A DNA stretch of 64,000 nt from contig NC_087436.1 of the NCBI RefSeq assembly GCF_036321535.1, forward strand, positions 77,812,001-77,876,000. The letters run 5' to 3'. The translations under genes were made by a program, and so were the position numbers. Source of the DNA: Camelus dromedarius (taxonomy: Eukaryota). The notes under the pieces are model-generated. The model did no database searches and was not told the DNA's origin. It saw only the letters and a program-made list of their open reading frames with translations. Every line of letters begins with the position of its first letter. Position 1 is the first letter of the stretch. Shown in pieces: positions 1 to 60,307 of this stretch.

Positions 1-17
1 GTCTTGTATTTCCATAG

Positions 18-69
18 CCTTCAAAAACAAATGGTGACAACTTACCAATTCCTTGCTGAAGATACATAT
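18..69 (+). CDS. Candidate internal coding exon, chain 1 (LQKQMVTTYQFLAEDTY); gene continues upstream of the window
   Basis: Acceptor tcttgtatttccatAG (16-17) and donor TAT|GTAAGC. 52 nt, only one frame open, ends in phase 0. Confidence 0.45.
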
Positions 70-1462
70 GTAAGCACATGTGATTTTCTCACCTACATTA
101 ATCATCAAATCTAGTTAGTAAGAGGAGATTCTTCTGGGCTTGTGAGAGAGGGAAGTGAAGTTCTGTAATTTCAAGAAAGGAATGTAAAGCAAAACAGTTG
201 TGATGGAGGAATGGAAAGAGTAAATAAAAACTTAAAACACTGAGGAAAATTCTTTAAGCCTCCTCCCAAATTATAACTTTTTAATAAACTGTAAGTTTAT
301 AAGAAAAAACTGAACATAGCAATTTCCAGACATCATGCCCATGCAGTTCTTCAGGAGTCAAGGAAAGGCAGATTCTCAGACCCTTTTAAGAGTACTTCTG
401 GATTTCAAACCCTTTCCTCAGGAAATATTTCAAGTGTTGTTGGTGGAGGAATGTTTTATTGGGTAGAGAAAGAACATGGAGGCATATTTAGGAAATAATC
501 TAAATCTAGAATGGGGTGATATTGGTGAGAAGCTTGAGACAAACTTGATAAGACCTAGCCCTTAATTCTAGCCCAGCTTCTGCTGGGTGTGGGCTCTTTC
601 TTACCTTCTTACCTTCCCTCTGCAGTCGCTGGTTCAGCCACCAAAAAGAAGTGGAGCTGGAAGATCTCTTAAGCTCCTTTTTCTCAGACTTGTTTCAAAA
701 GAATCTGAGTTTGGTAGCCCATATCCCAAAACTGCCTTTGAAAAAAATCACAATTTATATGTTTGACTCAAGCAGGATGCTAAACAGTACATGCCTGTAT
801 GTATTTGATCCAAAAAACCAATTTGACTGATTTCCTCTCTGATCACATATTGGCCAGATATTTCCCCAAACTGACTAAAACCTGTCTGTTGTTTAGTAAG
901 TCACGTGGACACAGATTAGGGGAAGTCATCTTTGAGGGGAAGATGGCTTTAGTAAATTAGCACCTAAACAGGGATCAACAATATTCTTTTTCCTCCTAAT
1001 ATTACTGGTTTAATGACATTATTTAATTTTGACTAAACTATAAAGTAAAGGGTGTGGTGGTTTTTAATAATATGGATATTCAAAGCCAGCTTGGAATGTT
1101 ATTATTACATGATCTGTGCTCAATGAAGGAAATCGGTGTACCTGAATAGGATGGTCTATATCCTAGAGCTAATAGTAGAATTGATTTAGGGAGCTTCTGA
1201 ATTGTTAATGAGATTTTCTGACACGACAATAACAGTAGCAGTCGGGCCCCCCAGGCTGGTTTTAAACATCTGCTGTCACTGCTAAATTTATTGTTCATTT
1301 CATCTTAAAATAGGAATTATGTAGCACTCAGCTATTCCAGATATAGATCTACCACTCCTAAATGATCAGTACTGAGAGGACTATTCCATAGATTAAAAAC
1401 ATTTATATTTAACTATTCAATAAATAGATTTCAGGCTTAAGATAAATCTCAAAGATAGACCC

Positions 1463-1832
1463 TACTATGGACTGAATTCTGTCCCTCAAAAATTTGTATG
1501 TTGAAACTAACCCTCAATGATACTGCATTTGGAGACAGGACTTTTACTGAAAAAAATTAAGCTTAAGTAAGGTCATAAGGGTTGGGCCCTGATTTCATAG
1601 GATTAGTGTCCTTAGAAGAAGAGGAAGAGAGACAAGACCTCTCTTTCTCTGCTATGTGAAGACATAGCGAGAAGGCAGTTATCTGTTAGCCAGGGAGAGG
1701 AATCACCCAGAGCTGAATCAGCCTGCACCTTGATCTTGGACTTCTAGCCTCCAAAACAGTGAGAAATAGATTTCTATTGTTTTAAGCCCCCTAGTCTCTG
1801 GTATTTTGTGATGGCAGCCTGTGCTGACTAAC
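1463..1832 (+). mobile_element. MaLR solo LTR (MLT1A/B-like)
   Basis: Typical motifs tatggactgaat...gtccc..aaaatt..tatgttgaa; ttgatcttggacttctagcctcc; ggtattttgtgatggcagcc...gactaa. Confidence 0.85.
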
Positions 1833-1962
1833 GTGGACACTATCATGGGTGAAGGAAATCACTGTTTTTAAGTTAGGGTAAGGGCAGAAACTTCATTAAA
1901 TAAGAGATAAACGTGTTTTTTGGTGTCTTCTCGCCATTACTGCTCACTTGTTTGTTTTTCAG

Positions 1963-2020
1963 AAGTGGGGTTCCCCAACATGGTCCCAGAATAGATTATT
2001 CAGTGAAGGGCAAGAAGCTA
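1963..2020 (+). CDS. Candidate coding exon, chain 1 (KWGSPTWSQNRLFSEGQEA, or SGVPQHGPRIDYSVK if a GC donor at 2010 is used)
   Basis: Good acceptor cttgtttgtttttcAG (1961-62). Donor ambiguous (CTA|GTGTGT at 2021 or AGG|GCAAGA at 2010); both models end in phase 1, as the next exon requires. Confidence 0.35.
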
Positions 2021-2198
2021 GTGTGTACCTGATATATAAGCCTTTACAAAATCTCCTATATTTTCAGAAGCCCAACCAGAGCCTCTGACCCCTAGATTAG
2101 CAGATGAATTTATGTCTCTTCTTTACATCGTCCAGTGGCTCCTGTCCTTGCTTCCTTGACTTGGCTGGAATTACTATCTCTTTCTGATTTTCCTGCAG

Positions 2199-2264
2199 GA
2201 CCTGTTGAAGAGCTAAGTGTATTAGAAATTTACAGATCTCATGAGATTGGTAAAGATAGGAAAA
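2199..2264 (+). CDS. Candidate coding exon, chain 1 (xPVEELSVLEIYRSHEIGKDRK)
   Basis: Acceptor tttctgattttcctgcAG and donor AAA|GTAAGT (an alternative donor at 2250 has the same phase). Only one frame open, phase 1 to phase 1. Confidence 0.5.
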
Positions 2265-2299
2265 GTAAGTCCATGTGAACACTGCTGCTGTTTGAGCCG

Positions 2300-2307
2300 T
2301 GACGTCA
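2300..2307. promoter_or_regulatory. Full palindromic CRE (TGACGTCA)
   Basis: Exact motif with an intact CpG; function untested. Confidence 0.3.
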
Positions 2308-2506
2308 AATTCATTTTTATCTGCCCAAGTGGGAGTACAATAAAAATGTTCTAGAAAAAAAATCGTGTTTGTTTCTTCTCGTAGGAGTCATAGCAGACAA
2401 AATAGCAGGGTGAGAGCTGAAAGAGTCATGGCAGGATGGCAGAGAGAAATAGATTAGGTAACAAGCATATGCTGTGAATAAGCTTTCTGCAGCCCACGCT
2501 ACGCAA

Positions 2507-2525
2507 CGCGCCCTCTGGGGCACAG
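2507..2525 (-). promoter_or_regulatory. CTCF-like motif in a local CpG cluster
   Basis: Minus strand reads TGTGCCCCAGAGGGCGCGT, similar to the CTCF core CCACCAGGGGGCGC. Confidence 0.35.
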
Positions 2526-2849
2526 AGCAGTAGAATCTGACGCTGCACGTGGTTGGTGTAAGATGATGTCATGAAACAACACAGCACAGAATCAGTCAAC
2601 TTGTATTTATATAACCCTAACTATGCTCAAGGCATCATGCTTGATGCTATGGTATGTACCCAATTTTTCTACATGCAAGGAAAGAATAGGCTAGTTGTGG
2701 AGAGAATCTACACGTAGACATACATATCAGCCATAAAAAATAACAGTAAACTGACTGGAAATTTGACAAAATTACATGGGGACAATAATTCTTACCTCAT
2801 GGACTTTGGGGGACTGGGGAGTGAGGATTAAATGGAAAGCAAAATACTT

Positions 2850-3070
2850 AAGAGCTCCAGACAATCTTGGGTTTGATTCCTTGCTCTGCTGCTTATGAGA
2901 TACTCTGAGGCAGGGAATCTACATTTTATTAAGCTTTGATTTCCCCATCTTGTAAGAAGGGATAATAATAGTAGCTTCCCATGATTGTTGTCAGATGACC
3001 TGTACAAAAGTGTTTAACACAGCACCTGACAGTTAGTCAGCACTCAATAAATGTTAGTTAAGTCATTATA
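2850..3070 (+). mobile_element. MIR SINE remnant
   Basis: gggtttgattccttgctctgc...tttccccatcttgtaagaagggataataatagta...acagcacctgac...ctcaataaatgttag. Confidence 0.7.
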
Positions 3071-3389
3071 GGCATTTGAAGTGCCCAGCACAAGGCCTTA
3101 TTTATGTAGCTGTTTAACAAATATTATGTCCTATTCTTTTTTTCTTAAGTGTCAAAAGAAGATTAACAGGGAATGACATGCACGACAAATGTGTAACTAG
3201 AAGTAAGCGAACAAGAGGAGAACAAAGGAATGGGGCTATAGTCTTATCTAATCTGAGCTACAGACAGGCTTACCCAAAGCCGAATAGCACTAGAGGAGTG
3301 GTCCCCAAAGAACACCACTCAGGAGCCCTGAGGGGTCTGATGTAATCAAACCCACAAGGAACTCCTGCAGGCAGGAACTTCAGAAGCGA

Positions 3390-4096
3390 TCTCACCATCG
3401 TCACGGCCACCACCAGGTCCAGGCCACCTCATCTTGCTCTGGATCACTGGAGCAGCCTCCTGACTGCTTTCTCAGCCTCAATCCTTGCCCTCTTAAACTC
3501 TATCCCCATGGAGCCAGAGCCATTCTTTCAAAATGTAGATCAGATCATGACATTGATATGGTGGCTTCCAATTTCACTCACAGTAAGAGCTCAAATCCTT
3601 GTAACGTCCTATGGGGCACTCAAGATCAGCTTCCCCTCTCCGCACCCCTTGTCTTCTGGCTCTTGACCTCATCTTCTCCCCAGGCTTCTCTGGGCCAGCT
3701 GCAGTAGCCTCCACTGAACACACCAACTAACTCTTTGCCTTCTGGCCTTTGCACTGGCTGTTCCCGCTACCTGGATCTATTGTCCCCCAAATACTCCCTC
3801 TTGCTCAAACTCCACTTTGCAGTGATGCTTATCTTTCTTAAAATTGCACCCTAGCTCCCATTCCCCCCAGCACTATTGGCTTCCCTCATCCTGCTCTACT
3901 TTCTACTTTTCCATAGCAGTTATCAACTATTTAATTTACTAATTTATTGTGGTTATTGTTCATTTTGTTTTCCCCCAGTAGAATGGAACCTTCTGCATTC
4001 ACAAGGATGTGTGTCTGTTTTGTTAACTGTTTGTTCATAAATCTAAAAGCATGTCTGGCAAGTGAGTGTCCAAAATTTATTTACTGAATGAATGAC
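3390..4096 (+). mobile_element. L2 LINE 3' end
   Basis: cagcctcctgactg...aaaatgtagatcagatcatg...ggcctttgcactggctgttccc...tttactgaatgaatga L2 tail. Confidence 0.8.
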
Positions 4097-4100
4097 TAGT

Positions 4101-4180
4101 TAATATATTACTAATATAAATATATGAATATATATTATAAATATATAAAATATTCATATATTTATATTAGCAATGTATTA
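4101..4180. repeat. AT-rich inverted repeat (31-bp arms, 18-nt spacer)
   Basis: 4101-4131 is the reverse complement of 4150-4180 with 2 mismatches. Confidence 0.85.
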
Positions 4181-4253
4181 CTAATAAGTCTACCATGCCT
4201 GCTACCTCTAATTCTAACGTAGTATTTCAAGTTACTAATAATATTAATAATTA

Positions 4254-4281
4254 GTGCTCACTTCAGCAACACAGGTACTAA
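4254..4281 (+). pseudogene. RNU6 (fragment): 3'-truncated (tailless) U6 snRNA retrocopy
   Basis: GTGCTCACTTCAGCAACACAGGTACTAA versus U6 5' end GTGCTCGCTTCGGCAGCACATATACTAA (23/28), flanked by a 21-bp direct repeat at 4233-4253 and 4276-4296. Confidence 0.7.
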
Positions 4282-4956
4282 TAATATTAGTAATTACTAA
4301 AATTACTAATAACATAGAATTACTAGTAATTCTGATATGTTACTAATGTAACACATACAGGTAAGGATTTGAGGTATCATAGCCCCTTTGTATCATGGCA
4401 AGAGAGAATCAATCCTTGGAAGGACTGGCTAGCGCACTTAGAGGTATCAGTAAATGGAAGCAAAGAAAGGGAAAAGGATCTTCCTGGTCTTCTCTATGGA
4501 GACACCAATGAAGCCCTTTTGTGGTGTAGTGTTATATCTTAATTGTCAGACTGAGGCTTTGAATAGGATTTTTAGGTAGAGGACTTAAATCAGGATCATC
4601 TAGCAAGTCTTTAAAAAATAAATCCATTGATCTGACAGATTATGTGATGGATCATTAATGTCTGGATGTAAACTTTCCAGAAATTTAGCAGCACATGCAC
4701 ACAGAAATGTAGCATTTACTGAGCTTACCAAGAAGCATAGCTCACAGAGTCCAGATATCCATCATCGTCATATGTGTCAATAAGATCCAAGGACTGCCTC
4801 TGACCCCATGTGCCTGTCTTGTCCCTCCTACTAAGATAATTTCTTTCCTTTTGTACTTCCCCCACCTTCACCCCCACCCCCACCCCCAATCTGGATGGTG
4901 GGGACATGCATCCCCTTCATACTGAAGCAGCAAAGTCTTCCTCACTTCTTCCCCAG

Positions 4957-5020
4957 ACACATTGCTTACTGTGTTCAACTTCTACCAAGAGTTTGGAATA
5001 TATATATTCTTTGTACAAAG
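4957..5020 (+). CDS. Candidate coding exon, chain 1 (xTLLTVFNFYQEFGIYIFFVQ), with GC donor
   Basis: Acceptor cttcctcacttcttccccAG and donor AAG|GCAAGG. 64 nt, phase 1 to phase 2, bridging the flanking exons in frame. Confidence 0.5.
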
Positions 5021-5177
5021 GCAAGGTTCTGTTCTCAACAATTTGTTTCAATGGGCCACAGGGGAAAATGGGTGTTTTTTCACATAATTAGATGTGAAAT
5101 ATGGATTTTTCTTTTGCCAGGTTACTGAGTAACATTTTTTGCTCTCTTTCTCTCTTCTTTGTGTTTTCTTTTTTTAG

Positions 5178-5250
5178 ACCTCTTGTGGTCACCCAAAATC
5201 TCAGGGGCAAAACAAAACGTCTAAAACTTGGCAATGGAATCTACTTGTAG
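5178..5250 (+). CDS. Candidate terminal coding exon, chain 1 (RPLVVTQNLRGKTKRLKLGNGIYL*)
   Basis: Long polypyrimidine tract ending tttttAG (5176-77), TAG at 5248-5250, AATAAA at 5287-5292. Confidence 0.5.
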
Positions 5251-5286
5251 GAAAACTTTTCTAAATTCTAATATATACATATATCA

Positions 5287-5292
5287 AATAAA
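5287..5292 (+). terminator. Poly(A) signal of chain 1
   Basis: AATAAA 36 nt after the predicted stop, followed by T-rich sequence. Confidence 0.4.
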
Positions 5293-6429
5293 ACACTAAA
5301 TCCCATTCCATTTTCTTCATCTCTTTATTTAAACATAGGAAATGAATGCATTTTCTTTACTACACTCTGAACTAAGTGCTACATGAATGCAAATTGGAGA
5401 GGCTTGTTTTCTAATAGTAGAAATCATGTCTGAAAAAAGAAAAGCTTGAAAGAAAGTTCTGAATGGAAAACAACCACAAAGCACTTCAAACTCTCTTAAG
5501 GGGGTAGTGACTTCTCTGCTTAAAAGTCTTACGTTAACATAGAGGATAGCTTATTGAGAAGGACTTTCCATTAGTTTCAGTAGCTATTTAGTGGCTATGA
5601 GCATTAGGACCTTGTTTTGTTATTCCAGAATGACGTTGCAGCATTGTCCAGAATCGAGGTGAAGGCGAGCAACATTAGGTTGGGCAATAAGGGTTATTGC
5701 CCATTCCTTTTAGCAGAAACCATCTATAAGGATCAAGAGAGTCGCAAAATCATCTTAAAAGATGTTTTTAATTAGATAGGGTATAAATAATAAATAATTT
5801 CTGCTATCAAAAACACCAGGCAAGATGGCTAGCCATGGAGTGAAACACCAGGCTACGGGCAGAACTAGTGAGAAGGAAGTCAGGAAGGGGTTAGATAGAA
5901 ATGCTGCCTCTTTCGATCACTGAGAATGGGCTGTGGGGCACGCTCACATCTTCTCTATGAAATGGCCATCAACCACTGTGTGAAATGGCTAAATCACCTG
6001 GTAAAGGCTTGCAGTCCCACGTGGTATCAGGGGGTCCCATATATAACCACGTGACTCCAGCTGATGAAGAGTTTTGGGCCCCCTGATTCTCTGGCTGTGT
6101 CCCGAGGTGCAGATAGGGGTCCCCAAAAGGAATGAACTTTCAACAGGTGAAAGAACAGATCATCCCCTACTGAGGGGCACACACAGCAGCAGTCTTCTAA
6201 GGCCCACTGGTGTTTGAAACACAGAATCTTAAGTTTGTTCCTATGAGCTTTATGGATTTTTCAAACTCTAATAGTGGACTGGATCTAATTGCAGATCTTT
6301 TTTTATTGGCTCTAGAGTGGAAGGAAATGATGCATTTCTTCCAGGCTTGGTCTGAGAAAACTTCTTTGAATAAGAGAGGAGGTAAGGTTTTCATTTTACC
6401 TTGAGAGTAATCTCGGCTAATTTGTTTAC

Positions 6430-16944: not shown

Positions 16945-17790
16945 GTTTATTGAAGTACAGTCAATTATAATGTGTCAATTTCTGGTGTACAGCACAATGT
17001 CCCAGTAATGCACATACATACATATATTCCTTTTCATATTTTTTTGATTAAAGTTTATTACAAGATATTGAACATAGTTCACTGTGCTATACAGAAGAAA
17101 CTTTTTAAAAATCTTTTTATATATAGTGGCTAACATTTGTAAATCTCATACTCCCAAATTTATATGTTCCAACCCCTTTTCCCCAGTAACCATAAGATTA
17201 TTTACTATGTCTGCAAGTCTGTTTCTGTTTTGTAGATGAGTTCATAGCATCCTTTTTTTTAACATTCTGCATATGAGTGATATCACATGGTATTTTTCTT
17301 TCTCTTTCTGGCTTACTTCACTTAGAATGATGATCTCTAGGCCCATCCATGTTGCTGCAAATGGCATTATTTTATTCTTTTTTATGGCTGAGTAGTATTC
17401 CATTATATAAATATACCACAGCTTCTTTATCCAGTCATTTATCGATGGACATTTAGATTGTGTCCATATCTTGGTTATTGTATACAGTGCTGCTATAAAC
17501 ATTGGAATGCATGTATCTTTTCAAATTAGAGTTTCCTCCAGATATATACCCAGGAATGGGATTGCTGGATCATATGGTAAGTCTGTTTTTAGTTTTTTGA
17601 GGAATCTCCATACAGTTTTTTCATAATAGCTGCACCAAACTACATTCCCACCAACAGTGTAGGAGGGTTCTCTTTTCTCTACACCCTCTCCAGCATTTAT
17701 CATTTGTGAACTTTTTAAGGTTGGCCATTCTGACGTGTGTGAAGTGATATCTCATTGCAGATTTGATTTGCATTTCTTTGGTACTTAGTT
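16945..17790 (-). mobile_element. 5'-truncated L1 (ORF2 C-terminus and 3' UTR)
   Basis: ORFs 17242-17703 encode L1 ORF2 C-terminal motifs (LPYDPAIP; MFIAALYTITKIW...EYYSAIKKN). Confidence 0.95.
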
Positions 17791-28175: not shown

Positions 28176-29517
28176 AGATATCCGTTAAACAGCTTGGGAG
28201 TCGATGATGTAAGCATAATATAAACATCAGGATGTGAATGACTTTAAATCATCTGTAACCTTATAAATTCGGCAGCAATAATGTAAACACCATAGGCATC
28301 CCTCCAAGGGGAAAGAGGCACTGGAAAGACTGGGCTCTTCTCTGTAATCACTTACAGCCAGCGCCGTAAAACATGAGCTTTGTGAATTCACGTATCAAGG
28401 TATATGTGTAATTAGGAACACAAGGACATAAGCATTGCAATGAAATGACTGTAGTTAAAGAACCATAGGTCATAGTTTAATCCTCTTATTGTGCAAGTAA
28501 GGATACAGAAACCCAGAAAGGTTATTTGACTGATCCAAGATCCCATAGCTGTCTATGGACCAATCAGGGCGTAGAACTCGGCTGACAAAATTCGTAGCAA
28601 CATGCTTTTCACCTTCACTTCACTCCACTGTTCATGTTCTGAGGTCCCTGGGAAAGACAATCTCTAAATGTAAACACATTGCTTAGAAGGTGTTACACCA
28701 GGGAGAACACAATAATGCTGTAAAAATATCACTTCACGGCCACAAAATTAATGAATCCATAAATCAACAAATGCCGTCAAACCCCACTAATGATTTGAGA
28801 AATGAGCTCCAAAAGCTTTTTGAAACATGTGAAATATGAGCATTATTATGCCCAGGTTAATAAAATGAGAACAGGGAAGACCCGGGACAAGTGGCAACTT
28901 CCAGCTGGACGTTAGGTTGAGTTTGCTTTTCCCAGGTGTGTTCTTGGGGGAGTTTCCTCTGTGTTCAAATAAGTTTTGATCTTTATGTGTTTGGTAGTCA
29001 GATAGCTTGTACTTTCACACACTCCACATTGATTTTCACAAATCTCCTTTCCTCAGTGGATTTCAGTCTTTCGTCCGTGACTGAGTCACCACAGGATGTG
29101 TCTAACTGCCGATGGTGGGGAGAAAGCTCGGACACCACAGAGGCAGAGGTGGGTGTGGGGAAGGGGCTGGTGTCAGGACCTGGGCCAAGGGGGTCTCGTC
29201 CTTCAACTCTCCACTTTGTTCCCTCCCTACCTTCTTGTTTCTCAAAAGAAACTTCTTTCAAGATGAGTATGAAGAGATATTGCCCACACTCAGACTTGCA
29301 GAAGCCCTCACTGCCCCTGAGGGTGGGGGTGGGGGTGGGCTGGGGAGTCAGGCAGTGGGGGCATAGCCCTAGACAGTTTCATACAAGATGTTAAGAGGCA
29401 GGAAAATGTTAAACTTCAGAGAAGGAAGAAGAGTAAGGAAAACATAGGTCAAGTCCTTGGGGACAGATAATACAATGAATGACTGCTAAACGCCCTTTCC
29501 ACTTATATTTCTCTATC

Positions 29518-30096: not shown

Positions 30097-32365
30097 ATGA
30101 AAGTGATGATTTTTAGAGCAAAATCCAAAACAGGAGAGGAGATTGTAAATGGCTGGGCAAGTCCACTCGGCCCCCACGCATTATATCCTGCTTAAACAGA
30201 GTGTGGAACAGCTACAGGAAAGCCGGTGGTCTTTTAGGGAAAGACAGAAAAGATATGAAGGGTCTGGAGATTTGAAAATGTTGTCCACAGTTTTAAAAAG
30301 GAGAGAAGGTAGCTACAGCAGAAAAATTCCATTATCTTGAGATTCATCCAGAGCAGGATTCTGTGTTCTGCAGGTGCTGCCTTCCCTGGCCCAGATGACC
30401 TGAAGTCTGTGGGAGAATCAACAAAGGGCCGGATCAAGGTTCCTAAGGTGGGGGACCGTCCCCTTGCTGTCCCTGTCATCTATGGTTCTGGGAAGGCGAG
30501 CCTGGTCTCTCCCTTTCCCAAGAGTCTGAAGCCTTTCTTCCAACCCCAGTCCAGGGGTGGGAATAGTGTCCTTCAAATATCTTTGTTGGGATGCGTAGGC
30601 ACTTGAACCAGGACTGGAGAGCCGTCTCATAAACCTTTGCTTATTCTGATTAGCAGCCAGCCTATTTCCTACTGTTCTTTCAGGTTCCAGCAATTCCAAG
30701 CATTTCTCCTTTCCCATCTTATTCCCGATCTAAACCAAGCTTGACAGAACTCTGTACAACTGTGTCTGCCCTCTTATCTTCATGGGCTCTTGCAAATCTG
30801 AGATCCTGATTCTGTGCCCTTCCCGTTGATGTTGCTTCGCTGAACTCTGAGGACAGCTCTGGCCCCAGACAGCCTTCTCCTCTTGGGCAGTCCTGTCTGC
30901 TTTCTTGTTGATCGGTTTTTATACTATGACAGTGATTCTCATTGTTTCCTTCATCAACTGAAATTTGATAGACACAAGAAACTAGGTTAAGACTTGGATT
31001 TTTTTGTTTGGCTTTGTTTTTGTTTTTAGCAGAACAGGACTTATAAAAGCTATATAAATGGTTGAATTTTAATTTTAGTGTAAATAATCAATTTGGGTGT
31101 TTCTGTTTGTTTGACAGTTCATATGTATAAATATGAAAGATCAAGAGAATAGGAAAAGAGGGGGTGAGAAAGGCATTTCATTGCTTTTGTTTAGTTGAAA
31201 ATGATGCTACTTTGATGGTTGCCATTTATGAGTATTACAAAAACGACTGTCCAGAAAGGCATGATAAAAAAAATCTGAGTAACTCATTTTTTAGCTCCAT
31301 TAAGGACAGAATAAGTTTAGTGGCTTAGAGCATGAACTTCGGAATGAGATGGGGCTGCCTTCAAATGCTGCCTGCTTTACTGACCCGCAATATGACTTAG
31401 TGACTTCAATCTTTCTAACACATTATTTCCTCATTTATGTAATGCATTTATTAAAAGACCTCATTGTGAGGTAGAAATTATGTAATATATAAAATATGCT
31501 TAGTACTTTGCTTGGCACGTAGTAAACACCTCACAATTGGTAGGTAGTGCTTTAGTAAGGACTAGATAAGTGCCTGCATTAACTCGGGGCCAGCCTCACG
31601 AACACAAAGAGCAGGACTTGTGATTTAATATGTTCTGTCCTCATGATCCACTTGTTCATTCTCCTACTGGCCTTAAAGGAATAAGGCTTTTGTGTCTAGT
31701 TTATTAAATAAGCTGGATTCAATAGAGCAAAAAGCACATTTTTTTTCTTTTAGCCACTATCTCTTTGAACCCACTCTCTCAACCTGTTCTCTCTTCACCC
31801 TGGATGAATGCTGTTCAGGTCTCACAGCTCTCCTGGTTACTATTAAGTAATAAGTCACCATTAAGTAAGAAAACAGTTAATCTTATGCAATAACTGCATA
31901 ACTCCAAACTCACATTCAGTGTGAATCTCCACCATCCCAGCTTGGGTCTCCTTTAGGTTTGCAAGATCGGGAGGCGGAGGATGGGCACTGGTTGCTTCTT
32001 TGTTTCTCTTGTTCTTCATTAAACATTGTCCGGGAGAAGGAAAAATTAAGTCAGTGCTAGCTTCCAACATCTGCATTCAAATTAGCTTATTAAATATGCT
32101 CTCAAATCCTGGCTTCCCCATGGCAGCCTCAGCTGGTGTCACTGAGTTGCTCTAGCCATGGGAACAGTCGTGCTCATTTTGGCAAGGAGAGAGCTAGCAG
32201 AAGTCTCAGCCCCACTGGTCTGGCTCCCCTCTGCACGAGGTCTCAGACCACACTAGTGTGTCAGGGAAACCATGGGAGTGGGCCAGGTCGACTCGTGGCC
32301 ATGTGCATAGACAAGACAATGTAATTTACAGGGTACTGTGCAAAATGGAAGCCCAGGATCCTTTT

Positions 32366-33107
32366 TCAAAAGAGGAGCCCTCCTATGCTGCTGGTGGGAA
32401 TGCAAACTGGTGCAGCCACCATGGAGAACAGTATGGGGTTCCTTAAAAAACTAAAAATAGAGTTACCATTTGACCCAGCAATCCCACTCCTGGGCGTATA
32501 TCTGGAGAAAACCCTAATTGGAAAAGATACATGCACCCCAATATTCATAGCAGCACTATTTACAATAGCCAAGACTTGGAAACAACCTAAATCTCCATAG
32601 ACAGATGACTACATAAAGAGTATGTGTGGGGGTGTGTGTATGTATATAATGGAATATTACTCAGCCACAAAAGGGAATGAAATAATGTCATTGGAAGCAA
32701 CATGGATAGACCTAGAGATTGTCTTACTAAGTGAAGTAAATCAGTAAGAGAAAGACAAATATCATATGGTATCACTTATATGTGGAATCCAAAAAAAAAA
32801 AAAAAAAAAGACACAGATGAACTTATTTACAAAACAGAAAGAGACTCACGGACATAGAAAACAAACTTCCCCATGGCAGGGGAAGAAGATGGGGAGGGAT
32901 AAATTGGGAGTTTGGGACTGGCAGATACAAACTACTATGTACAGAATAGATAAACATCAAGGTTCTACTGTATAGCACAAGGAACTATATTCAGTGGCTT
33001 GTAGTAACTTGTCATGAAAAAGAATATATATATATATATATATGAATCACTATGCTATACACCAGAAACTAACACAATATTGTAAACTCACTATACTTCA
33101 ATTAAAG
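32366..33107 (+). mobile_element. 5'-truncated L1
   Basis: ORF 32385-32600 contains LKKLKIELPFDPAIPLLGVY...[16 protein letters not shown]; 3' UTR ends ctatacttcaattaaa. Confidence 0.95.
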
Positions 33108-33943
33108 AGAGAGACATGGAATGCTGGCACCTGATGAGGAAGCTCAGAAGGGAAAGTCCCCGCTCTGCCTACTCCTGATTGCAGTAGGAGGAAGGATCAT
33201 AATGCACAGGACTTCAGACTTTTCTGAGCAATCCTGTATTCACTGTTTCTCAGATGTGGTACCTGTGCCCACAGAATCTCAGGGCCGAGGATCAGTTAAA
33301 ATGCTTCTTGTCGTTGGGCCCATCTGGAGCCCTCTTCCTGAGAGACAAAGCGTGAGAAGACTGGCCACTGGCCGCTATAACTTCACCGAGCCTCACATCC
33401 GCTCTGGGCATCCCCCGCCCTGTGGGCAGCCTCAGTCTCCCCCTGCCGAAGTCTTTCCTTAGCAGGACGGGGAGGACCCGCGAGCAAAGGGATAGACATG
33501 AACCCGCAGGTTTGGCAGTCCCTTTTCCTCAATGGGAGGGTTCATCTGTTTCCTAAATCCTAACATGCTGTGAGGTGCTCGAGTGTACACTATCCTGCGA
33601 TGTCATCGTGGCTCGGATTATTTCCAGAAGGTCACCTGATATGGAAAATACCAGAGGCCTCTCTCTAAAGTAGTTCAACACTTGGCACTTGTAGCTTCAG
33701 ATGTGAAATATGACAACCCAATTTCTTCTTTATTTTCTTCTGGATTGACACCTTTTTATTTAAATCTAATACTGTTTATTTAATTATCCTCATTAGAAAT
33801 ATTTAATACATCAAAAAGATTCTTTAATGCTGAACACTGTACTGTCACTAATTTTTTTATACTTTTATTTATTTTTACTTTTAATCATCCTTTCCCTTCC
33901 AGCTTTATTGAGATATACCTGACATACAGCACTGTATACTTCC

Positions 33944-34062
33944 TTTGGAGGCGGGGGTAATTTGGTTTATGTATTTATTTATTTAATGGAGGGACTGGGG
34001 ATTGAATCCAGGACCTCATGCTTGCTAGGCATGCACTCTACCACTGAGCTGTACCCTCCTCC
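33944..34062 (-). mobile_element. vic-1-like SINE with an L1 3' tip at its tail (about 33865-33940)
   Basis: ggggattgaatccaggacctc...ctctaccactgagctgtaccctcc; flanking cactaat repeats at 33846 and 34063. Confidence 0.85.
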
Positions 34063-35609: not shown

Positions 35610-36600
35610 TGGACACCAAAAGCACAAGCAACAAAAGAAAAAAATAGATAAATTGGATCTCATCAAAATTAAAAACATCAGAAGAGTGAAATGATGACCC
35701 ACAAAACAGGAGACTGTTTTTTTTAATTATGTGTCTGATGAGGAACTCGTATCTAGACTATCTAAAGAACTACTACAACTAGATGGCAAAAAGACAAATA
35801 ACACAATGCAAAAATGGACAAAGGATCTGAATAGACATTTCTCCAAAGAAGATACACAAATGACCAATAAGTACACAAAAAGGTGCTTAACGTCATTAGT
35901 CATCAGAGAACTGTTAAGCAAAGCCACAGTGAGACACCACTTCATATCCATTAGCATGTCTCTAATCAAAAAGTCACATAGTAACAAGTGTAGAGCAAAG
36001 TGTAAATCAACTACACTTCAATCAAAATAAGTACATAAATAAATAAATAAATATTATCAGATAGTAACAAGTGTCAGTGAGGATGGAGAGAAATTGGAAG
36101 CCTCATACATAGCCAGTAAAAATGTGAACTGGTGCAGCTGCTTTGAAAACAGCCTGACAGTTTGTCAAATAGTAAGACATATAGTATTATCATATGATCC
36201 AGCAATTCAATTTCTAGTTATATACTCAAGAGAAATGGAAACCTATGTTTACATAAAAACTTGCACATAGATGTTCATAGCACTGTTTCCAACAGTCAAA
36301 AAGTAGGGGAAAATCCCAAGTGTCCATTAACTGGTAAATGGATAACTGAGATGTAGTATATCCTTACAACGGAATATTATTTGGCAAGAAAAAAGAAGGA
36401 AGTACTGATGCTACAACACAGATGAGCCTTGAAGACATTATGCTAAGTGAAAGAAGCCAGTCACAAAGGACCACAAAATTGTATGATTCCATTTATGTGG
36501 AATGCCAAGAATAGCCAAATCTACAGAGACAGAAAGCAGATTAGTGGTTTCCTATGCCTGGAGGTGATAAGGAGACATGAGGAGACTGGGGTGATGACTA
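35610..36600 (+). mobile_element. Old L1 (L1MB-like) ORF2 end and 3' UTR
   Basis: ORF 35731-36030 contains KWTKDLNRHFSKEDTQM; 3' UTR gacattatgctaagtgaaagaagccagtcacaaaggac. Confidence 0.9.
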
Positions 36601-39126: not shown

Positions 39127-39515
39127 TATTAATCTGCTCAGGGTGCCATAACCAGATATCATAGACTGGGTGGCTTAAACAACAGAAATTTGTTCTCACA
39201 GCCTGGAGTCTAGAAGTTCACCATCAGGCTACTAGCAACTTTGGGTTCTGGTGAGAGCACTCTTCTGGCTTGCAGATGGTCGTCATCTGCTATACCCTTA
39301 TAAGATCCCTTTTTGTGTGAGGGTGGGGGTGGTGAAAGAGAGAGAGGCAGCTGGCTCTCTGGGGTCTCTTCCTGAAAAAGGCTCTAATTCCGTAATGAGA
39401 GCCCCACCTTCATGACTTCATCTAACTCATTATCTCCAAATGTCCATCTCTAAATACCATGACCTTGGGTATTAGGACCTCAACATGCAAATATTGGGGG
39501 GAACATAATTCAGTC
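39127..39515 (-). mobile_element. MaLR LTR (MLT1A/B-like)
   Basis: gtattaatctgctcagggtgccataac...gggtggcttaaacaacagaaattt...ggggggaacataattcagtcc. Confidence 0.85.
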
Positions 39516-39639
39516 CTCTCTCTGAAATGTAATGGCTTCGTGATTACCGGAGAGAGTATTTTTCAAATCACATGAGCCATCAACGTAAGCGTTACCTGGA
39601 GAACATTTTGTTCTGGTAAGTGTTTCTGTTTTGCAAACA

Positions 39640-40179: not shown

Positions 40180-41240
40180 AAATTTTAATTGAAGTATAGT
40201 TGCTTCACAATGTTGTGCTAGTTTCAGGTATGTAGCAAGTGATTCAGTTATACATGTATATTCTTTTTAAGATTCTTTCCCATTATAGGTTATTACAAGA
40301 TATTGAACAGTTTCCTGTGCTATACAGTAAGTAGGTCCTTGTTGTTTATCTATTTTATGCATAGTAGTGTGTATATGTTAATCCCAACTTCCAATCTATC
40401 CCTCCCCTCGTTTCCCATTTGGTAATAAAAATTTGTTTTCTATGTCTGTGAGTCTATTTTTGTTTTGTAAATAATTTCACTTGTTATCTTTTTTTAGATT
40501 TCATATATAAGTGATACCATATGATATCTGTCTTTCCCTGTCTGACTTACTTCACTTAATATGATAATCTCTAGGTCTATATAGAAATGTAACAGATTTC
40601 TGTGTATTAATTTTGTATCCTGAACTCTACCAAATTCATTGATGAGCTCTCATATTTTTCTGGTAGCATCTTTAGGATTTCCTACATATAGTACCATGTC
40701 ATCTGCCAACAGTGACAATTTTACTTCTTTTTTTCCAATTTAGAATCCTTTTATTTCTTTTTCTTCTTTGATTGCTGTGGCTAGGACTTCCAAAACTATG
40801 TTTATGTTGAATAAAAGTGGTGAGAGTGGGCAACCTTGTCTTGTTCCTGATATTAGAGGAAATGCTTTTAGCTTTTCGCCATTGAGCATGATGTTAGCTG
40901 TGGGTTTGTCATATATGGCCGTTATTATGTTGAGGTATGTTCTGTCTATGCCCACTTTCTGGAGAGTTTTTATCATAAATGGAGGTTGAAGTTTATCAAA
41001 AGCTTTTTCTGCATCTATTGAGATGATTATATGGTTTTCATTCTTCAATTTGTTAACGTGGTGTACCACATTAATTGATTTTCAGATGTTGAAAAACCCC
41101 TGCACCCCTGGGATAAATCCTACTTGATCATGGTGTGTGATCCTTTTAATGTATCATTGGAGTCATTTTGTTGAGAGTTTTTGCACATATGTTCCTCAGT
41201 GATACTGGCCTATAATTTTCTGTTTTTGTGTGATATCCTT
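40180..41240 (-). mobile_element. L1 with internal deletion (3' UTR fused to ORF2 RT region)
   Basis: 3' end to about 40580, directly followed by ORF2 RT sequence (ORF 40740-41069: [12 protein letters not shown]...[14 protein letters not shown]). Confidence 0.9.
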
Positions 41241-42939
41241 GCTGCTGGTAATCTAGTTTTAATAGATATACCCAAACTTTTCTTAAGCTAGCAAAACTTT
41301 GATTGCTATATCATCTTGGAACTTCCTATTTTAAAATTTCCACTGCCCTTAAGTTTCTTTAGCCAAGAGTATTTCATGGTATCAACAACCAGCATCCTTC
41401 ATGCAATGGGAGAGGTCTATTCTAAACTTGGATTCTCCCCATACTATAAGCAGAGCAGAGCACGGAGAAGGTGGAAGGACCTGAGTAAGGGCAGGGCTGG
41501 TAATCCTGAAGTTCTAATGGTGTGCAGCCACTGTGCAGCCGCACAGCTGGCAGGAAACTTCAGCTGATCTTCCTCCCGCAGCAGCCCTCATGTTTAGGAC
41601 ACATGTTTATTTTGGAGATTCGGAGGTAGATGAGACAGAAGAAGTAAGGCAGATCGTAAGGGCCCAGAATGAAGCTAGATACCTCAGGAGGCAACCAGAG
41701 CTCCATCCAACTAAGAGGCTCTGGGAAAAGGCATCAACGCATACACAGCAGAGTCATCCTGCCAAGGGGCAAGGGAGCTGGGATGCTTCTATTCCCAGCC
41801 TCAGGTAACATGTAAGGATGCCCCTAGGGAGTCATTAATCCCTAGGTCTTCCAATAGGCAAGGCGGGGTCCATCAGCCCAAGAGCGGGTACTGGCGGCTG
41901 TCTGTGGAAATGGTGAGGGGCTCAAGATGATGTGGGTAGAACACACTCACGACGTGTCAGAAGCTCTCACCTTGTGCTCAGGCTTTAATTGGAACAAGTC
42001 AGAGTAAGGACTTGGACACATGAGGATTTCCAACTGGTTCTGTGTGATTAGTCTCTGTTCTATTGTTTTAGAGTCTACCTGGGAACTCTTCATTTTCTTT
42101 GGAGGTAAAGAGTGTGCCTAACTGAGAAACCTGCATTATTTTATCTTTTCTCTGAAGAAAGCAACCTCTTATTGATGAAAGAATCAGCTTTTGGAGCACT
42201 TGTGACATCGTTTCCAGATGTGAGCTTTGCAGACATACACTGGCCAGATCCAGAGGAGCCCAGGTCACGGTACAAGAGCAGATGCCTGAAAGCTTTGGGG
42301 ATATCTTTGATTCCATTAAGACCCTGGCTTTGCAGGCTACTTTGATGTCATCTCTCCCAGTTTATTGTGGTGTGTTTCACTCTACAAGCTGGGGAAACAT
42401 CTGGGCTATTTCAGCTGGCTTCACTCTTTTAGGTGGTGTTTGGGAATATTATTTGGAAAGGGCCGTGCTGGAAATTACCGGTGATCACATATGTGCCAGT
42501 TTTGCACTTCCTAGTGTTCTTTTGCATTGCTCTGCCTTATCTCTAAGTCAGTCCCAGAACCACCCAGAAGACCCTTTAAATGCCAGTCTCCATATTCACT
42601 CTCACTAGAAGGCAAGGAAATTGCAAGGCAGCTAATAAGTTCTGATGACAATGTTCTAGACTAGAGTGAAAACAAGGATCTAATTATTCATTTAGGAGGG
42701 GGATTGGGAGGCGATCCCAATTATTTTGGTTATATTTCTTTGATTTGTAAATCCATCTATCGTACTAAATGCATATCATTTTTCTCCCCCACAGGAGCTG
42801 ATTCTCTTCCTAGGCATTTCTACTGAGTAGAAACCCAAATTACAGAACAGATAGAAGAAAACATAAGATACTATCGATGACACTGAAGGAGGGAACATTT
42901 TCTTAAGGCATAAAAATTACTCCTCTTTTGCTTTAGAAG

Positions 42940-46916: not shown

Positions 46917-47290
46917 CGTCTTCCTTTGCTCAGGCTACCATAACCAAATACCACAGACCTGGGGGCTTAAACAAAAAGAAATTTGTTTCTCACAGTTGGG
47001 AAGCCAGAAGTCCAAGATGAAGGTGCCCAGCAGGTTCCGTGTCTGGTGAGGGCCCTCTCCTGGCTAGCCGACGGCCACCTTCTTGCCGGGCCCTCACATG
47101 GCTTCTCCTGAGTGCCTGCTAGTGGAAAGACTATTGCTCTCTCTTCCTCTTTTTATAAGGTCACTCATCCCATCACAAAGGTCCCACCCTCAGTATACAG
47201 TCCAAACCCAATCACTTCTCAAAGGTCCCCACATTCAGATATGATCAACATTTGAATCTTGAAGGGAACATAAACATTCCGCTTACAACA
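46917..47290 (-). mobile_element. MaLR LTR (MLT1A/B-like)
   Basis: ggctaccataaccaaataccacagac...ggcttaaacaa...tctggtgagggccctctcc...ttttataagg. Confidence 0.85.
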
Positions 47291-49120: not shown

Positions 49121-49964
49121 AAAAGGCCAGTTTTAATCATAACATATTTGGGAAGCAGTTAGACCAAAATATACCCCATACGTTGTGCCAAATGCTTCCT
49201 GCTACGGCCAATATGTGCTGAACTTTGGACACTGCCTGAGCCATTGTGGTTCACAGTCAGACTTAAGTGACCCAAGAAGCCATGTCTTGCCCTGTGGGGA
49301 TTCCTAGCCTCTCCTTTCCCTAGCCCCTTTTCTGAGACACTAGAGAGATTATCTAGATTTTCTGTTGACTTTTGAAGGTAGTCCTTGAAGTCTTGATCAA
49401 ACTAGGTTTTCTATGACTGCTCTAGAAGTACTTAGAGCTCTATATTGAAAGGAATGAATACTTCAGGAACCCTTTGGGCATGTAAACAAGCCTGCCCTGA
49501 GTACTTGTCTTAGGTTCAAAATGCCTGGTCCCATTTCTTTCCCCAAGTTCTTTCTCTCCCCTCACACACACACCTCCAAGGGGCCAGATATTCATATAGA
49601 CTCAGAAAATACCTCTCTTGTAGGACTTAGGGATAAAGTTGTGGCTCATTTTAACTATCTAGACTATAGTCTCGCCCTTATAAATGATTCAAGTCTGTCC
49701 AAATAGAAATTAACAATCTGAAGTTACCCAAAAAAAAGGAAAGATGGAAAGAAGGAAGTGAGGGGAGGGGAGGAGGGAGGGAGAGACAGGTAAGGGTGGG
49801 AAGATGCAGCAGAATATCCAACTACAAATGACTTATTGCATTTCATAATAGAAGATTTGAGTTTTACTGATTTATTTCTTGGTAAAAAGATGTGTTTTTT
49901 AATTCCACAATTTACATCATGTTATGAATCTTTGAGTCTTTCTTCGTATCTAAGAAAGCTTTGG

Positions 49965-51262
49965 TGAAGCTAGAACACTCCCTTACGCCATACACAAAAA
50001 TAAACTCAAAATGGATCAAAGAATTAAATATAAGACAAGATGCAATAAACCTCCTAGAAGAAAATATAGGCCAAACATTATCTAACATACATCTCAAAAA
50101 TGTTCTCCTAAGACAGTCTATCCAAGCAATAGAAATAAAAGTGAGAATAAACAAATGGGACCTAATTAAACTTACAAGCTTCTGCACAGCAAAGGAAACC
50201 ATAAGTAAAACAAAAAGACAACCTACGGAATGGGAGAAAATTTTTGCAAATGAAACCGACAAAGGCTTGATCTCCAGAATATATAAGCAGCTCCTACGAC
50301 TTAATAAGAGAAAAACAAACAACCCAATCCAAAAATGGGCAAAAGACCTAAACAAGCAATTCTCCAAGGAAGACATACAAATGATCAAAAGGCACATGAA
50401 AAAATGCTCAATATCACTAATTATCAGAGAAATGCAAATCAAAACTACAATGAGGTATCACCTCACACCAGTCAGAATGGCCATCATTCAAAAGTCCACA
50501 AATGACAAATGCTGGAGAGGCTGTGGAGAAAGGGGAACCTCCTACACTGCTGGTGGGAATGCAGTTTGGTGCAGCCACTGTGGAAAACAGTGTGGAGATT
50601 CCTCAAAAGACTAGGAATAGACTTACCATATGACCCAGGAATCCCACTCCTGGGCTTATATCCAGAAGGAACCTTACTTCAGGATGACACCTGCACCCCA
50701 ATGTTCATAGCAGCATTATTTACAATAGCCAAGACATGGAAACATCCTAAATGTCCATCAACAGATGACTGGATAAAGAAGAGGTGGTATATTTACACAA
50801 TGGAATACTATTCAGCCATAAAAACTGACAATATAACGCCATTTGCAGCAACATGGATGTTCCTGGAGAATGTCATTCTAAGTGAAGTAAGCCAGAAAGA
50901 GAAGGAAAACTACCATATGAGATCACTCATATGTCGAAGCTAAAAAAAAAAAAAAAAAGAAACCATAAATACAAAACAGAAACAGACTCATAGACATAGA
51001 ATACAAACTTGTGATTGCCAAGGGGGAGGGGGCTGGGCAGGGACAGACTGGGATTTCAAAATGTAGAATAGATAAACAAGATTATACTGTATAGCACAAG
51101 GAAATACATGCATGATCTTGTGGTAGCTCACAGCGAAAAAAAAATGTGACAATGAATATATGTATGTTCATGTACAACTGAAAAATTGTGCTCTACACTG
51201 GAATTTGACACAACATTGTAAAATGACTATTACTCAAAAAAAAAAAAGTTAAAAAAAAAAGA
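49965..51262 (+). mobile_element. Young 5'-truncated L1 (about 1.3 kb) with perfect TSD
   Basis: ORF2 C-terminus nearly intact (ORFs 49961-50614 and 50509-50943, one frameshift). TSD aagaaagctttgg at 49952-49964 and 51263-51275. Confidence 0.97.
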
Positions 51263-54200
51263 AAGAAAGCTTTGGCATCAATCCCCCTGGATTTCTGTCC
51301 CGTCATCCTAGCTCTCATTCTAAGCAGTATCTTTGAGGCAAAGGGGCTATTGGGGCTACTTCATAACTCAAAAGCTTGAAGACTGGAGGTTTTTCTGACT
51401 TCGGCTTTGAAAAGTTCATCATTCTAAACCCTTGAAATGGTGACCTCCTTCACTTATAACTTGCCTGATTGTTCTCTGAGATGTCAGCTTTATCTGATAA
51501 TAAAATATCATGTAATGTCCTCTAACTTTCTAGAAAACATCTGAAAATAGCGTGACTTACAAAGTAATAATCTAATTTGATGAACTTAACCTCTACAACC
51601 ATGTATTACATGGTTATGATGGAAACTTCATTTCAAATAACAACAAGACTTTAGAATATTTATTCTGTTTATAACAGAATTTTCATTATACAATGTGAAA
51701 ACAAAAGCAAACGTATGAAGTGCATTTTGCTGTACGTATATTTCAATAAAAACATCGTTACAAGAAATACATGAAATAAGACAAATTGTAGCTATTTGTG
51801 TCCATTTCTGTTAAAAATATTATCTTTATCAATTCAAATCTTTCCCAATTAAATCAGATTCTTTGGGGTTCATTTACCCTGGTATACAGTTTAAGCAGAT
51901 TTTCTACATCTATGGTGATAATGACCACTCTTTGGAAGTACTGGGGTTACAATTTCTATTCTGCACTTGTGAAATACATTGTACCGAAAACTCTAGAGAC
52001 TCACATCCAGTATTTACTCTTACAACTGGTACCATCTGCAAATTGGGAGCTCCAGAGCCCCACCCATGGCCCCTTCCAGGGTTTCACCACAGACAAGGAC
52101 CCTGGGAATTAAGGAATCTTTCTTTGCACCATATAAACGTGATTTAATCACAATAAGAGAAGGAACTTCTACCCATACGTAAAAGTCAGAAATGGTTATA
52201 GGGTTTTCCAAGGACATTTTCCATGAGGTTATGTATTCATGAGTCCCAAAGTGTTGTTTTAAACATCACTTCTGTACCTTATTTTCTCTTTCTCTTGCCT
52301 ATGTGTGATGTGTGTGCATTTGTGGCTGTATGTCTGTATATATATTTTTTTCAAATGCAGTCACGAGAGAGTTGCTGAAATCACCATTACAAACATGTGT
52401 TTAAGCAATCATTAACCCATAGGTGAAGAACCATACAAGGTTAATCTGTTTATGGACTAGCCAGTATTTCTCAAAGTGTGTCCCATCAAATCAGACCTAT
52501 TAAGTGAGAATTTCTGCCAGTAAAGCCTGGTCATCTGTACTAAACAAGTTCCCTAAGTGATTATTATCTATTCATTCAACAAACATTTACTGAGTTCCTA
52601 TTATTAAGTACTAAGTACTGGGGGATATAAATGAACAAGGCAATCCTGAGCCCTGTCTTCACAGAACCTAGAATCCAGCATTTACAGAACTTAACAATAG
52701 TTACAAAATGTTGAGCAGACTTTTCTGCTGAACAGGACCCAAAGTCAGGAATAATCCACATTCTAGAGAGTAAAGAGAATTGGAAGCAATTGGAAACCAG
52801 ATTCTTACTATGTCTAGGGCTTCATCAGTGGCAGCTGAGCCACCTCGGAGACCTGCCCTTATCACCCACACCCAACCCCATCTCCTGTGCATGAAGAGTA
52901 GGGAGCGGGGAGGAGGGGAAAGGAGAAGGTACAAGTTCAAGGGTGTGAAGTGCCAAAGCTCTTCCCTCTCTTTCCTGTGAAAAAAGGGGCTGCTTCTTCA
53001 CCCCAAAGACCAAGTAAAGAAAGCACTAGTCAATACTTCCTCAAAATTTGGCAGATCCTTTCGGAAGGAGAGCGAGACATCTAATTCCCTAACCAAATGT
53101 CTACTTACGCAGCGGATCTGCTGGTCTGTGTTTAAGCCACTCAGTCTACTGTATTTTTGTTATGGCAGCCCAAACGCACTAAGGAAGACACACACCAACC
53201 TTGGACCATTTAATAAACCACCTATATGGATATTCTGTGAAAAACAAACCAACCAACAAAGTGTTCTTTGGTAAAATAAGACTAGGAAACCAGGTAAACT
53301 GTAATCCCCACCGTTACAGCCATGGTTGCTGCCATCACCACGTGCTGAAATTGACAGTGACAATCAGCATATTAAAGACTCTGTGAAGACAATCAAATAG
53401 GAAAGACTATTTGTATTCAACCCAACATTATCTACCTTGTTTATCAATAGAAAGAGAGAGAATGGGGGACCTGTTACATCTTATGGGAAGCTAATGTCTA
53501 TGCAGGACAGTTTGGGAAGTGAATGCTGGGATCACCACAGTTTGTATTGTTTAGTGTAGCATTCAGTGCCAGGAGGTGACAGATCAAAGAGATTCCTGAG
53601 ACAGTATTCACATCTTTATGCTTTATCATGTAGTCATCATGGTCAATCAAAGTAACTTTGAATATATTATTCACAAACTAACCTTTCTTGGATGCTGAAT
53701 ACCTTCTAGAGATTTTCCATGCATGATCCTACTGAATCTTCCCCAGAACCCCAGGAAGCAGATACTATACACATCCCCAGGTCACAGTTGAGGAAAACGG
53801 AAGTCAAGCTTACACAGCTAGTAGAAAGCTTTAAATCCAGGTCTGTCCGAGCCAAGCCCTGCTCTGGACCGCTAGGATATATTGCTCTGTGTTCATATGT
53901 TTCTCTGCACTCTTATGGGAAATTACCCAGACTGTGATTCTAATATTACTCACCACCACATTGAATAATAATCAGTCATAGCTGTGAACCTCATGGCAAT
54001 TAAATGATCCTTATTTTTCTGACCAGCTTATTCAGGTTCAACAGCAATGTAAGGGTCTGGGTAATAAGCGTAGTAACGATTTGAAATTGATATGAACTAC
54101 AAGAGAAAGGCCAAAGGGAGGCTGAACAGCTGCACACCTTGGAAACGTTCAGGCTCCTCCGGGTGGCATATTATATGAGTCTCTGCGTGTGCTGAGGGGG

Positions 54201-54981
54201 TGGGGTGGGTATGAGGACAATATTTATCTTCAGTATACCCCGAGTATGAGGAAATTGGTTGCAGATGGCTCACAGCTGTGAGGAATACCTTTGTTTCATT
54301 TGAAACTTGTTATAAATCTGTTCCTTAAACTACCTGCTCTAATGACTTTTAATTTAGAGGATGTCGGGTAAGTCCCTGGATCTGACCCTCATGTATCATC
54401 ATAAAAGTGGTGGGGTGGTTTGGCCGGGAAACCCCTGGGAGAGGCCCTGGATTTATCGAAGGACTGGGTTACCACGGGTACTTTGGGGAGTTTGGCTACA
54501 GGCTTTTATTGATTATCAACATTGCAAAGAAGAAATCAATTTTTAGCAAGAGCGGAATTGAGGGAAAAATCCCTCTTGGCTATAATATTTTTTAAAAAGA
54601 AGTTATGTTAAAATTATTCTTTTTTCTCTGAGAACATTTTGGAAAGTGGAATTATTACTCCATAAGTAAAGACGTTTGGACTGAAATGAAAAAGATAACA
54701 TTTTTTTGTGGGTAAGCGGTTTAACTGGCTTTTCTCTAGAAGGGCAAGTCCGATTGACTCAATGTCCCCCGGTACATTTGTAGGGGGTGGGGGGGTGGGA
54801 CGACGGGGGGAAATAAGCTGATGATAATCAAATGAGTTCTTTGATTTTATAAAATCCAAATTAATGGCTTTCATACCTGGAAAACAAAGCTTTTTTTCCA
54901 ACCATGTTTTTGTATCATACAGCAAATTTTCATTAAATCCTATAAGGTGACTTTATACTTTAAAAAAAGAAAAAAATGTCT

Positions 54982-60243: not shown

Positions 60244-60307
<64 letters not shown>

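What the first reader, a model, noticed from the sequence alone, without database searches (positions are those of the whole stretch)
18..5292. Hidden micro-exon gene (chain 1): phase-consistent exons ending in stop plus AATAAA, protein unrecognised
Seen: five 50-75 nt exons bounded by plausible splice sites (18-69, 1963-2020, 2199-2264, 4957-5020, 5178-5250). Two of them (18-69, 2199-2264) have only one open frame, and the phases chain into one ORF: ...LQKQMVTTYQFLAEDTY-KWGSPTWSQNRLFSEGQEA-RPVEELSVLEIYRSHEIGKDRK-NTLLTVFNFYQEFGIYIFFVQ-RPLVVTQNLRGKTKRLKLGNGIYL*, with AATAAA 36 nt after the stop. The second exon is ambiguous; an alternative adds exon 422-462 (EIFQVLLVEECFIG) and reads SGVPQHGPRIDYSVK. 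Inference: the 3' end of a small, possibly fast-evolving or unannotated gene that the ORF track misses. I do not recognise the peptide.
Basis: partly seen in the sequence, partly recalled or inferred. Interest (0 to 1): 0.7.

Follow-up and report, generated by a model that had tools for sequence, protein, structure and literature searches.

The report
Splice-signal cluster, protein claim unsupported
A 5-kb stretch of an apparently camel-family genome holds a cluster of good splice signals ending at a polyadenylation motif, likely the tail of an ordinary non-coding RNA, while the small protein stitched from it has no relative in the databases searched and is no better than chance.

Summary
The five segments, their AG/GT (one GC) borders, the 103-codon open chain, the stop at 5248-5250 and AATAAA at 5287 are all there. 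The splice signals as a group beat 42 of 42 control segments and 998 of 1000 block-shuffled ones; that is only about 0.05-0.08 per window after selection. The reading frame adds nothing. With these splice sites kept and the rest scrambled, an equally good open chain appears in 853 of 2000 trials. Codon use looks non-coding. No relative was found among 5.8 billion proteins, Pfam, PDB, the Atlas or metagenomes, although a calibration says an 80-100% identical annotated protein would usually have shown. No RNA reads were laid, so the junctions are untested. Best reading: 3' end of a spliced non-coding or lineage-restricted transcript (0.42). Rivals: chance (0.30), fast-evolving coding gene (0.17), pseudogene (0.11).

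The parts
18..69 (+). Candidate exon A (52 nt, acceptor 7.7 bits with only 17 nt of intron visible, GT donor 5.6 bits); one open frame; holds the only ATG of the chain at 31-33, which would give a 99-residue ORF
422..462 (+). Optional candidate exon B (41 nt, weak donor 2.6 bits); fits the chain only with the GC donor after 2009
1963..2020 (+). Candidate exon C (strong acceptor 10.8 bits, branch-like CTCAC at -17; weak GT donor after 2020 or weak GC donor after 2009)
2199..2264 (+).
2385..2457 (+).
3979..4061 (+).
4957..5020 (+). Candidate exon E (acceptor 11.1 bits; GC donor AAG|GCAAGG 5.3 bits); three open frames
5178..5310 (+).
5287..5292 (+). AATAAA followed by a T-rich stretch: putative polyadenylation signal

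Best explanation
The stretch holds a cluster of strong splice signals ending at AATAAA and is likely the last few exons of a spliced, polyadenylated non-coding (or lineage-restricted) transcript that would start upstream of the window, the open frame being incidental. Shown: the acceptors, donors, AATAAA, and that the chain can be read open. Inferred mechanism: RNA polymerase II enters from upstream, and the major spliceosome recognises some subset of the short exons (best D, E, F), using a GC donor after E. The RNA is cut and polyadenylated some 15-25 nt after 5292. Exon choice is probably variable (2385-2457 and 3979-4061 score as well), so most products would hold no long frame. Low, tissue-restricted expression such as testis is a guess from general knowledge of intergenic lncRNAs.
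For: Splice signals alone: best frame-free five-exon chain 85.4 bits, reached by 0 of 42 real control segments (top 77.7) and 2 of 1000 block shuffles. Nine acceptors of 10 bits or more against 2.9 expected. None of the 4 repeat hits of a self-comparison touches any of 9 candidate exons. No protein relative, where a calibrated 90%-identical target was seen in 29-30 of 30 trials and an 80% one in 19-29 of 30. A GC-AG intron is commoner in lncRNAs than in coding genes (3.0% against 0.8% in human; PMC7242645, abstract), a weak pointer.
Against: No RNA junction was observed. After allowing for about 24 segments per window the cluster has P of about 0.05-0.08, with a crude matrix and limits fitted to the case. 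With the frame requirement, real controls come close (74.6 against 74.9 bits), and a six-exon version was beaten by 1 of 42 controls. AT-rich coding genes also have low GC3 (general knowledge). No Rfam family matches here, which is neutral.
Confidence: 0.42

Rival explanations
1. Not a gene: a chance cluster of pyrimidine tracts and GT/GC motifs in intergenic or deep intronic AT-rich DNA, picked as the best of the window and chained by choosing among many options.
For: Per-window chance about 0.08. 6 of 42 real control segments also give a five-exon open chain with stop and AATAAA, the best at 74.6 against 74.9 bits. Two of the four donors are weak or non-canonical. No homologue anywhere. No Pfam-recognised exon in the rest of the window (0 of 61 frames at cut-off).
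Against: The frame-free score clearly exceeds all 42 controls (85.4 against 77.7). The exons avoid the repeats detected. Two pairs are separated by intron-sized gaps of 178 and 157 nt with long pyrimidine tracts.
Confidence: 0.3
2. One reading: 3' exons (or the whole 99-codon frame from ATG 31-33) of a real, fast-evolving protein-coding gene missed by annotation, giving a small soluble protein.
For: With the five exons fixed, an open frame arises in 31 of 20000 shuffles. A frame of 99 codons from the only Met sits just under the usual 100-codon limit (limit as in the abstract start of PMC8435553, listing). Searches lose power below 70% identity (3-15 of 30 as calibrated). Maximum 19-residue hydropathy is 1.27, so no clear membrane helix.
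Against: An exact camelid protein would have scored E=7e-4, 5e-5 and 5e-13, and none appeared. The peptide words are in no paper searched.
Confidence: 0.17
3. Decayed remains of a gene lost in this lineage (unitary pseudogene), possibly the locally mapped VAMP9, with splice sites partly kept and the ancestral frame blurred.
For: Earlier notes report such fossils on this chromosome (not checked). The inferred position is near where VAMP9P lies on the + strand in human (chr4:82,285,053-82,340,013; PMC6886504 Data S3) and VAMP9 in cattle (PMC13491712). Exons A and D show a faint, recalled and untested likeness to longin and R-SNARE segments.
Against: 0 of 99 frames of 1-5600 reach a Pfam cut-off, with no longin or synaptobrevin hit at E<=1. 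PDB searches of the A and D frames give 0 hits at E<=10. The listed VAMP9P coding regions are about 5 kb apart in a 55-kb model, unlike this 5.3-kb cluster. Recalled SNARE and HNRNPD motifs are absent from all six frames of the window.
Confidence: 0.11

Closest known systems
Spliced intergenic long non-coding RNAs of mammals (class; GC-AG figures from PMC7242645, abstract)
   Same: Multi-exon layout, polyadenylation signal, GC-AG intron, no coding bias, no protein relative
   Different: Transcription is not shown here, and the candidate exons (41-83 nt) are short for typical lncRNA exons (general knowledge)
Small genes and unitary pseudogenes found by PhyloCSF (PMC6886504; passages and part of the supplements read)
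   Different: They are defined by a cross-species coding signature, which could not be computed here; single-genome coding tests were negative
VAMP9 / human VAMP9P (PMC6324057, PMC6886504 Data S3, PMC13491712)
   Same: + strand, same broad chromosomal region as inferred for this window, lost in primates and kept in other mammals
   Different: No longin or synaptobrevin hit; exon spacing differs; no sign of the neighbouring HNRNPD in the 59 kb downstream by recalled motifs

Membership tests
Protein-coding gene | Open, phase-consistent frame beyond what the splice sites give by chance | tested here: not met
   853 of 2000 scrambles; 106 open chains; only the fixed-exon test is low, 31 of 20000
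Protein-coding gene | Coding-like codon or amino-acid use | tested here: not met
   Codon score -27.5 bits, 79% of null chains higher; amino-acid score -0.7, 20% of null higher (recalled human codon table; AT-rich genes can score low)
Protein-coding gene | Annotated homologue in related mammals | tested here: not met
   none at E<=10 among 10, 4 and 30 candidates; 3 repeat artefacts; power falls below 70% identity
Protein-coding gene | Cross-species coding signature (PhyloCSF, dN/dS), ribosome or peptide evidence | not testable with these tools
   No mammalian genome collection is held
Spliced lncRNA | Splice signals and polyadenylation signal above background | tested here: inconclusive
   P 0.002-0.003 per segment, about 0.05-0.08 per window
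Spliced lncRNA | Transcribed and spliced RNA over 200 nt | not tested
   Runs were listed but no reads were laid (one search gave no result)
Spliced lncRNA | No coding evidence | tested here: met
VAMP9 (VAMP family) | Longin or synaptobrevin domain match | tested here: not met
   Pfam; PDB; short frames limit the power
VAMP9 (VAMP family) | Synteny between RASGEF1B and HNRNPD | tested here: inconclusive
   Position only inferred from earlier notes and recalled human coordinates; no marker gene found in the window

The most novel reading that the evidence does not exclude
A real micro-exon protein-coding gene, restricted to camelids or evolving too fast to be recognised: a 99-residue (from ATG 31-33) or longer protein built from five 50-75-nt exons with a GC-AG intron, missed by the annotations and with no known relative.
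Probability: 0.15. Interest if true: 0.55.

Novelty: new member of a known kind. Interest (0 to 1): 0.2.

Why it matters
If it is a lncRNA tail or chance, it matters little: mammalian genomes hold thousands of unannotated spliced non-coding transcripts (general knowledge). The useful lesson is about method: once a handful of good splice sites lie within 5 kb, an open phase-consistent micro-exon chain with stop and AATAAA is easy to build, so phase consistency alone is not evidence of a hidden gene. If the novel case held, it would add an orphan or very fast-evolving mammalian protein whose birth or divergence could be dated across camelids and other even-toed ungulates.

Tried and rejected
RNA evidence: one search listed 24 runs, 13 holding the stretch or part of it, with 1 on record as RNA. 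Three RNA or RNA-like runs held 0.06 of the words and four more held 0.20-0.47. None was laid, so they count as no evidence either way. My 5400-base query was also ill-suited: the exons alone hold 4.4% of the 31-mers, under the listing floor of one twentieth, so a purely spliced RNA could be missed. Protein searches: exon D frame (71-2000 aa), exon E frame (94-2000 aa) and a pooled alignment of five exon frames (-2000 aa) found nothing at E<=10; shorter proteins were not searched. The representative search with exon C frame 0 gave 3 hits (E 3e-8 to 5e-5), all unnamed tandem-repeat proteins whose scores are summed over 3-4 weak stretches: rejected; that search had little power (7 of 30 at 90% identity). 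Pfam: 0 of 6 frames; 11 of 99 frames with weak hits, none at cut-off, best E=0.0054 in an intronic frame; 1 of 61 downstream and minus-strand frames, E=0.025, below cut-off. PDB: 7 searches, best E=0.43. ESM Atlas: no usable hit; 0.84 bacterial hypotheticals with low recognition. Metagenomes: 597 and 588 pattern matches, none confirmed. Rfam: nothing in the region. The bacterial promoter scan was irrelevant. Known human genes of the inferred region were compared from memory only; none fitted. Papers: no hit for three peptide words or for camel plus local gene names; PMC10195156 does not mention the local lncRNA names searched. The joined peptide was neither searched whole nor folded, so distant homology of the full chain stays open.
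Full report
Setting. The window is AT-rich, repeat-laden mammalian DNA. Its long ORFs are L1-like fragments or low-complexity (the L1 label is recalled). No whole genome is held. Earlier notes on the same piece call the genome camelid. They place the casein cluster 8.18 Mb, a SLC4A4 intron 7.23 Mb and ARG/Albfm1 5.72 Mb before the window (not checked by me). With recalled human coordinates this extrapolates to the equivalent of human 4q21, roughly 80-82 Mb. That is an inference: no marker gene was found in the window (0 of 61 candidate exon frames outside the cluster or on the minus strand reach a Pfam cut-off; Rfam finds only two tRNA-like matches far away).

Observation. The five segments are as described: 52, 58, 66, 64 and 73 nt, each after AG. 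Joined from phase 2 they give 103 codons and TAG, with AATAAA at 5287. On a simple weight matrix with recalled frequencies the acceptors at 1963, 2199, 4957 and 5178 score 10.5-11.3 bits and the one at 18 scores 7.7. The donors score 5.6 (69), 4.1 (2020), 8.6 (2264) and 5.3 (5020). The alternative with 422-462 has three internal stops with the 2020 donor and is open only with a second, weak GC donor after 2009. The only Met of the chain is at 31-33, so a self-contained 99-codon frame is also possible.

Are the splice signals more than chance? Modestly. Nine acceptors of 10 bits or more lie in 1-5400 against 2.9 expected (P=0.003). Ignoring frame, the best four internal exons plus terminal exon score 85.4 bits; 0 of 42 overlapping real control segments (top 77.7) and 2 of 1000 block-resampled segments reach that. 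None of the 42 real controls does, but six hold such a chain and the best scores 74.6; for six exons 1 of 42 controls scores higher. The size limits were fitted to the observation, so these P values are optimistic. A self-comparison found 4 repeat hits in the segment, none on any of 9 candidate exons; no repeat library was available.

Is the frame more than chance? No. One open frame is the usual result for random pieces of this size (44-45%). All three frames of the last exon stop within 100 nt of the AATAAA. The result on the other side: if the five exons are fixed in advance, only 31 of 20000 shuffles stay open. So if RNA showed exactly this splice path the coding case would become strong. 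Some competing exons look by eye like L2 remnants (recalled, untested). Codon use scores -27.5 bits against -18.7 +/- 10.8 for stop-free non-coding pieces and +23.5 +/- 8.5 expected for average human coding; GC3 is 0.34. AT-rich genes can score low, so this is absence of support, not disproof.

Relatives. None was found. The three searches of the 5.8-billion collection (exon D frame; exon E frame; five pooled exon frames) gave 10, 4 and 30 candidates and none at E<=10. The tool calls such blanks weak evidence, and proteins under 71 (94) residues were not searched. Detection ran at 29-30 of 30 at 90% identity, 19-29 of 30 at 80%, 5-15 of 30 at 70% and 2-10 of 30 at 60%. An annotated camelid or close mammalian protein is therefore unlikely; a distant one is not excluded. 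The three hits are unnamed tandem-repeat proteins. Pfam, PDB, the ESM Atlas and metagenome contigs gave nothing credible.

RNA. One search listed runs with small shares of the words, one on record as reproductive-system RNA, but no reads were laid (one search gave no result), so these are no evidence.

How it most likely works. Shown: signals and an open path. Inferred (0.42): a polymerase II transcript from upstream is spliced over a variable subset of these short exons, with a GC-AG intron before the last exon, and polyadenylated after 5292; it has no conserved protein product. GC-AG introns are commoner in lncRNAs (3.0% against 0.8% in human; PMC7242645, abstract only), a weak pointer. Rivals: chance cluster (0.30), fast-evolving or lineage-restricted coding gene (0.17), decayed lost gene (0.11).

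Comparison with known genes. The one gene of the inferred region that I could document as kept in other mammals and lost in primates is VAMP9: PMC6324057 (passages), PMC13491712 (table passages) and PMC6886504 Data S3 (part 1 of 2: + strand, chr4:82,285,053-82,340,013, listed coding regions about 5 kb apart). Exons A and D have a faint likeness to longin and R-SNARE segments, recalled and untested. No Pfam or PDB match supports it, the spacing differs, and recalled SNARE and HNRNPD motifs are absent from the window. It is not filed as VAMP9. Of PMC6886504 I also saw passages, Data S2 part 1 of 12 (a search of it for chr4 found nothing), Data S4 part 1 of 2 and 60 of 153 chr4 places in Data S1; the unread parts could hold a relevant row. 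PMC10195156 was term-searched only. Papers not named here were seen as listings only. No paper holds three peptide words or camel with the local gene names; subscription journals and bioRxiv supplements were not searched.

Verdict. The sequence features are real, and there is a fair but unproven chance of a spliced transcript end. The hidden-protein claim rests on a phase argument that fails its control. At best this is a new member of a known kind; interest 0.2. The novel case, an orphan micro-exon protein gene, keeps about 0.15.

Noticed in passing
   Followed up: partly
window 29057-29148, 30374-30447, 41582-41643 (+): Further well-bounded small candidate exons with one open frame; no Pfam match.
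   Followed up: partly
window 33987-34058 and 55031-55103 (-): Two Rfam tRNA matches (44.1 and 43.1 bits), most likely heads of tRNA-derived SINEs (inferred).
   Followed up: no
window 49928-50943, 35698-36270, 40740-41081, 17242-17751, 32325-32600: L1 ORF2-like 3' fragments (label recalled; translations).
   Followed up: no
window 39129-39516 and 46928-47189: Two old copies (61-70% identity) of a repeat also present in the first long intron of the cluster; LTR-like by recall.
   Followed up: no
window 60130-60360: Compound GAAA/GGAA purine microsatellite at the tail of a SINE-like element.
   Followed up: no
window 33001-34000 and 54001-55000: Slight CpG enrichment (observed/expected 0.40 and 0.46), below island level; possibly weak regulatory elements.
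   Followed up: no
window 4100-4340: Very AT-rich, TA/ACT-repetitive tract in the intron before exon E.
   Followed up: no
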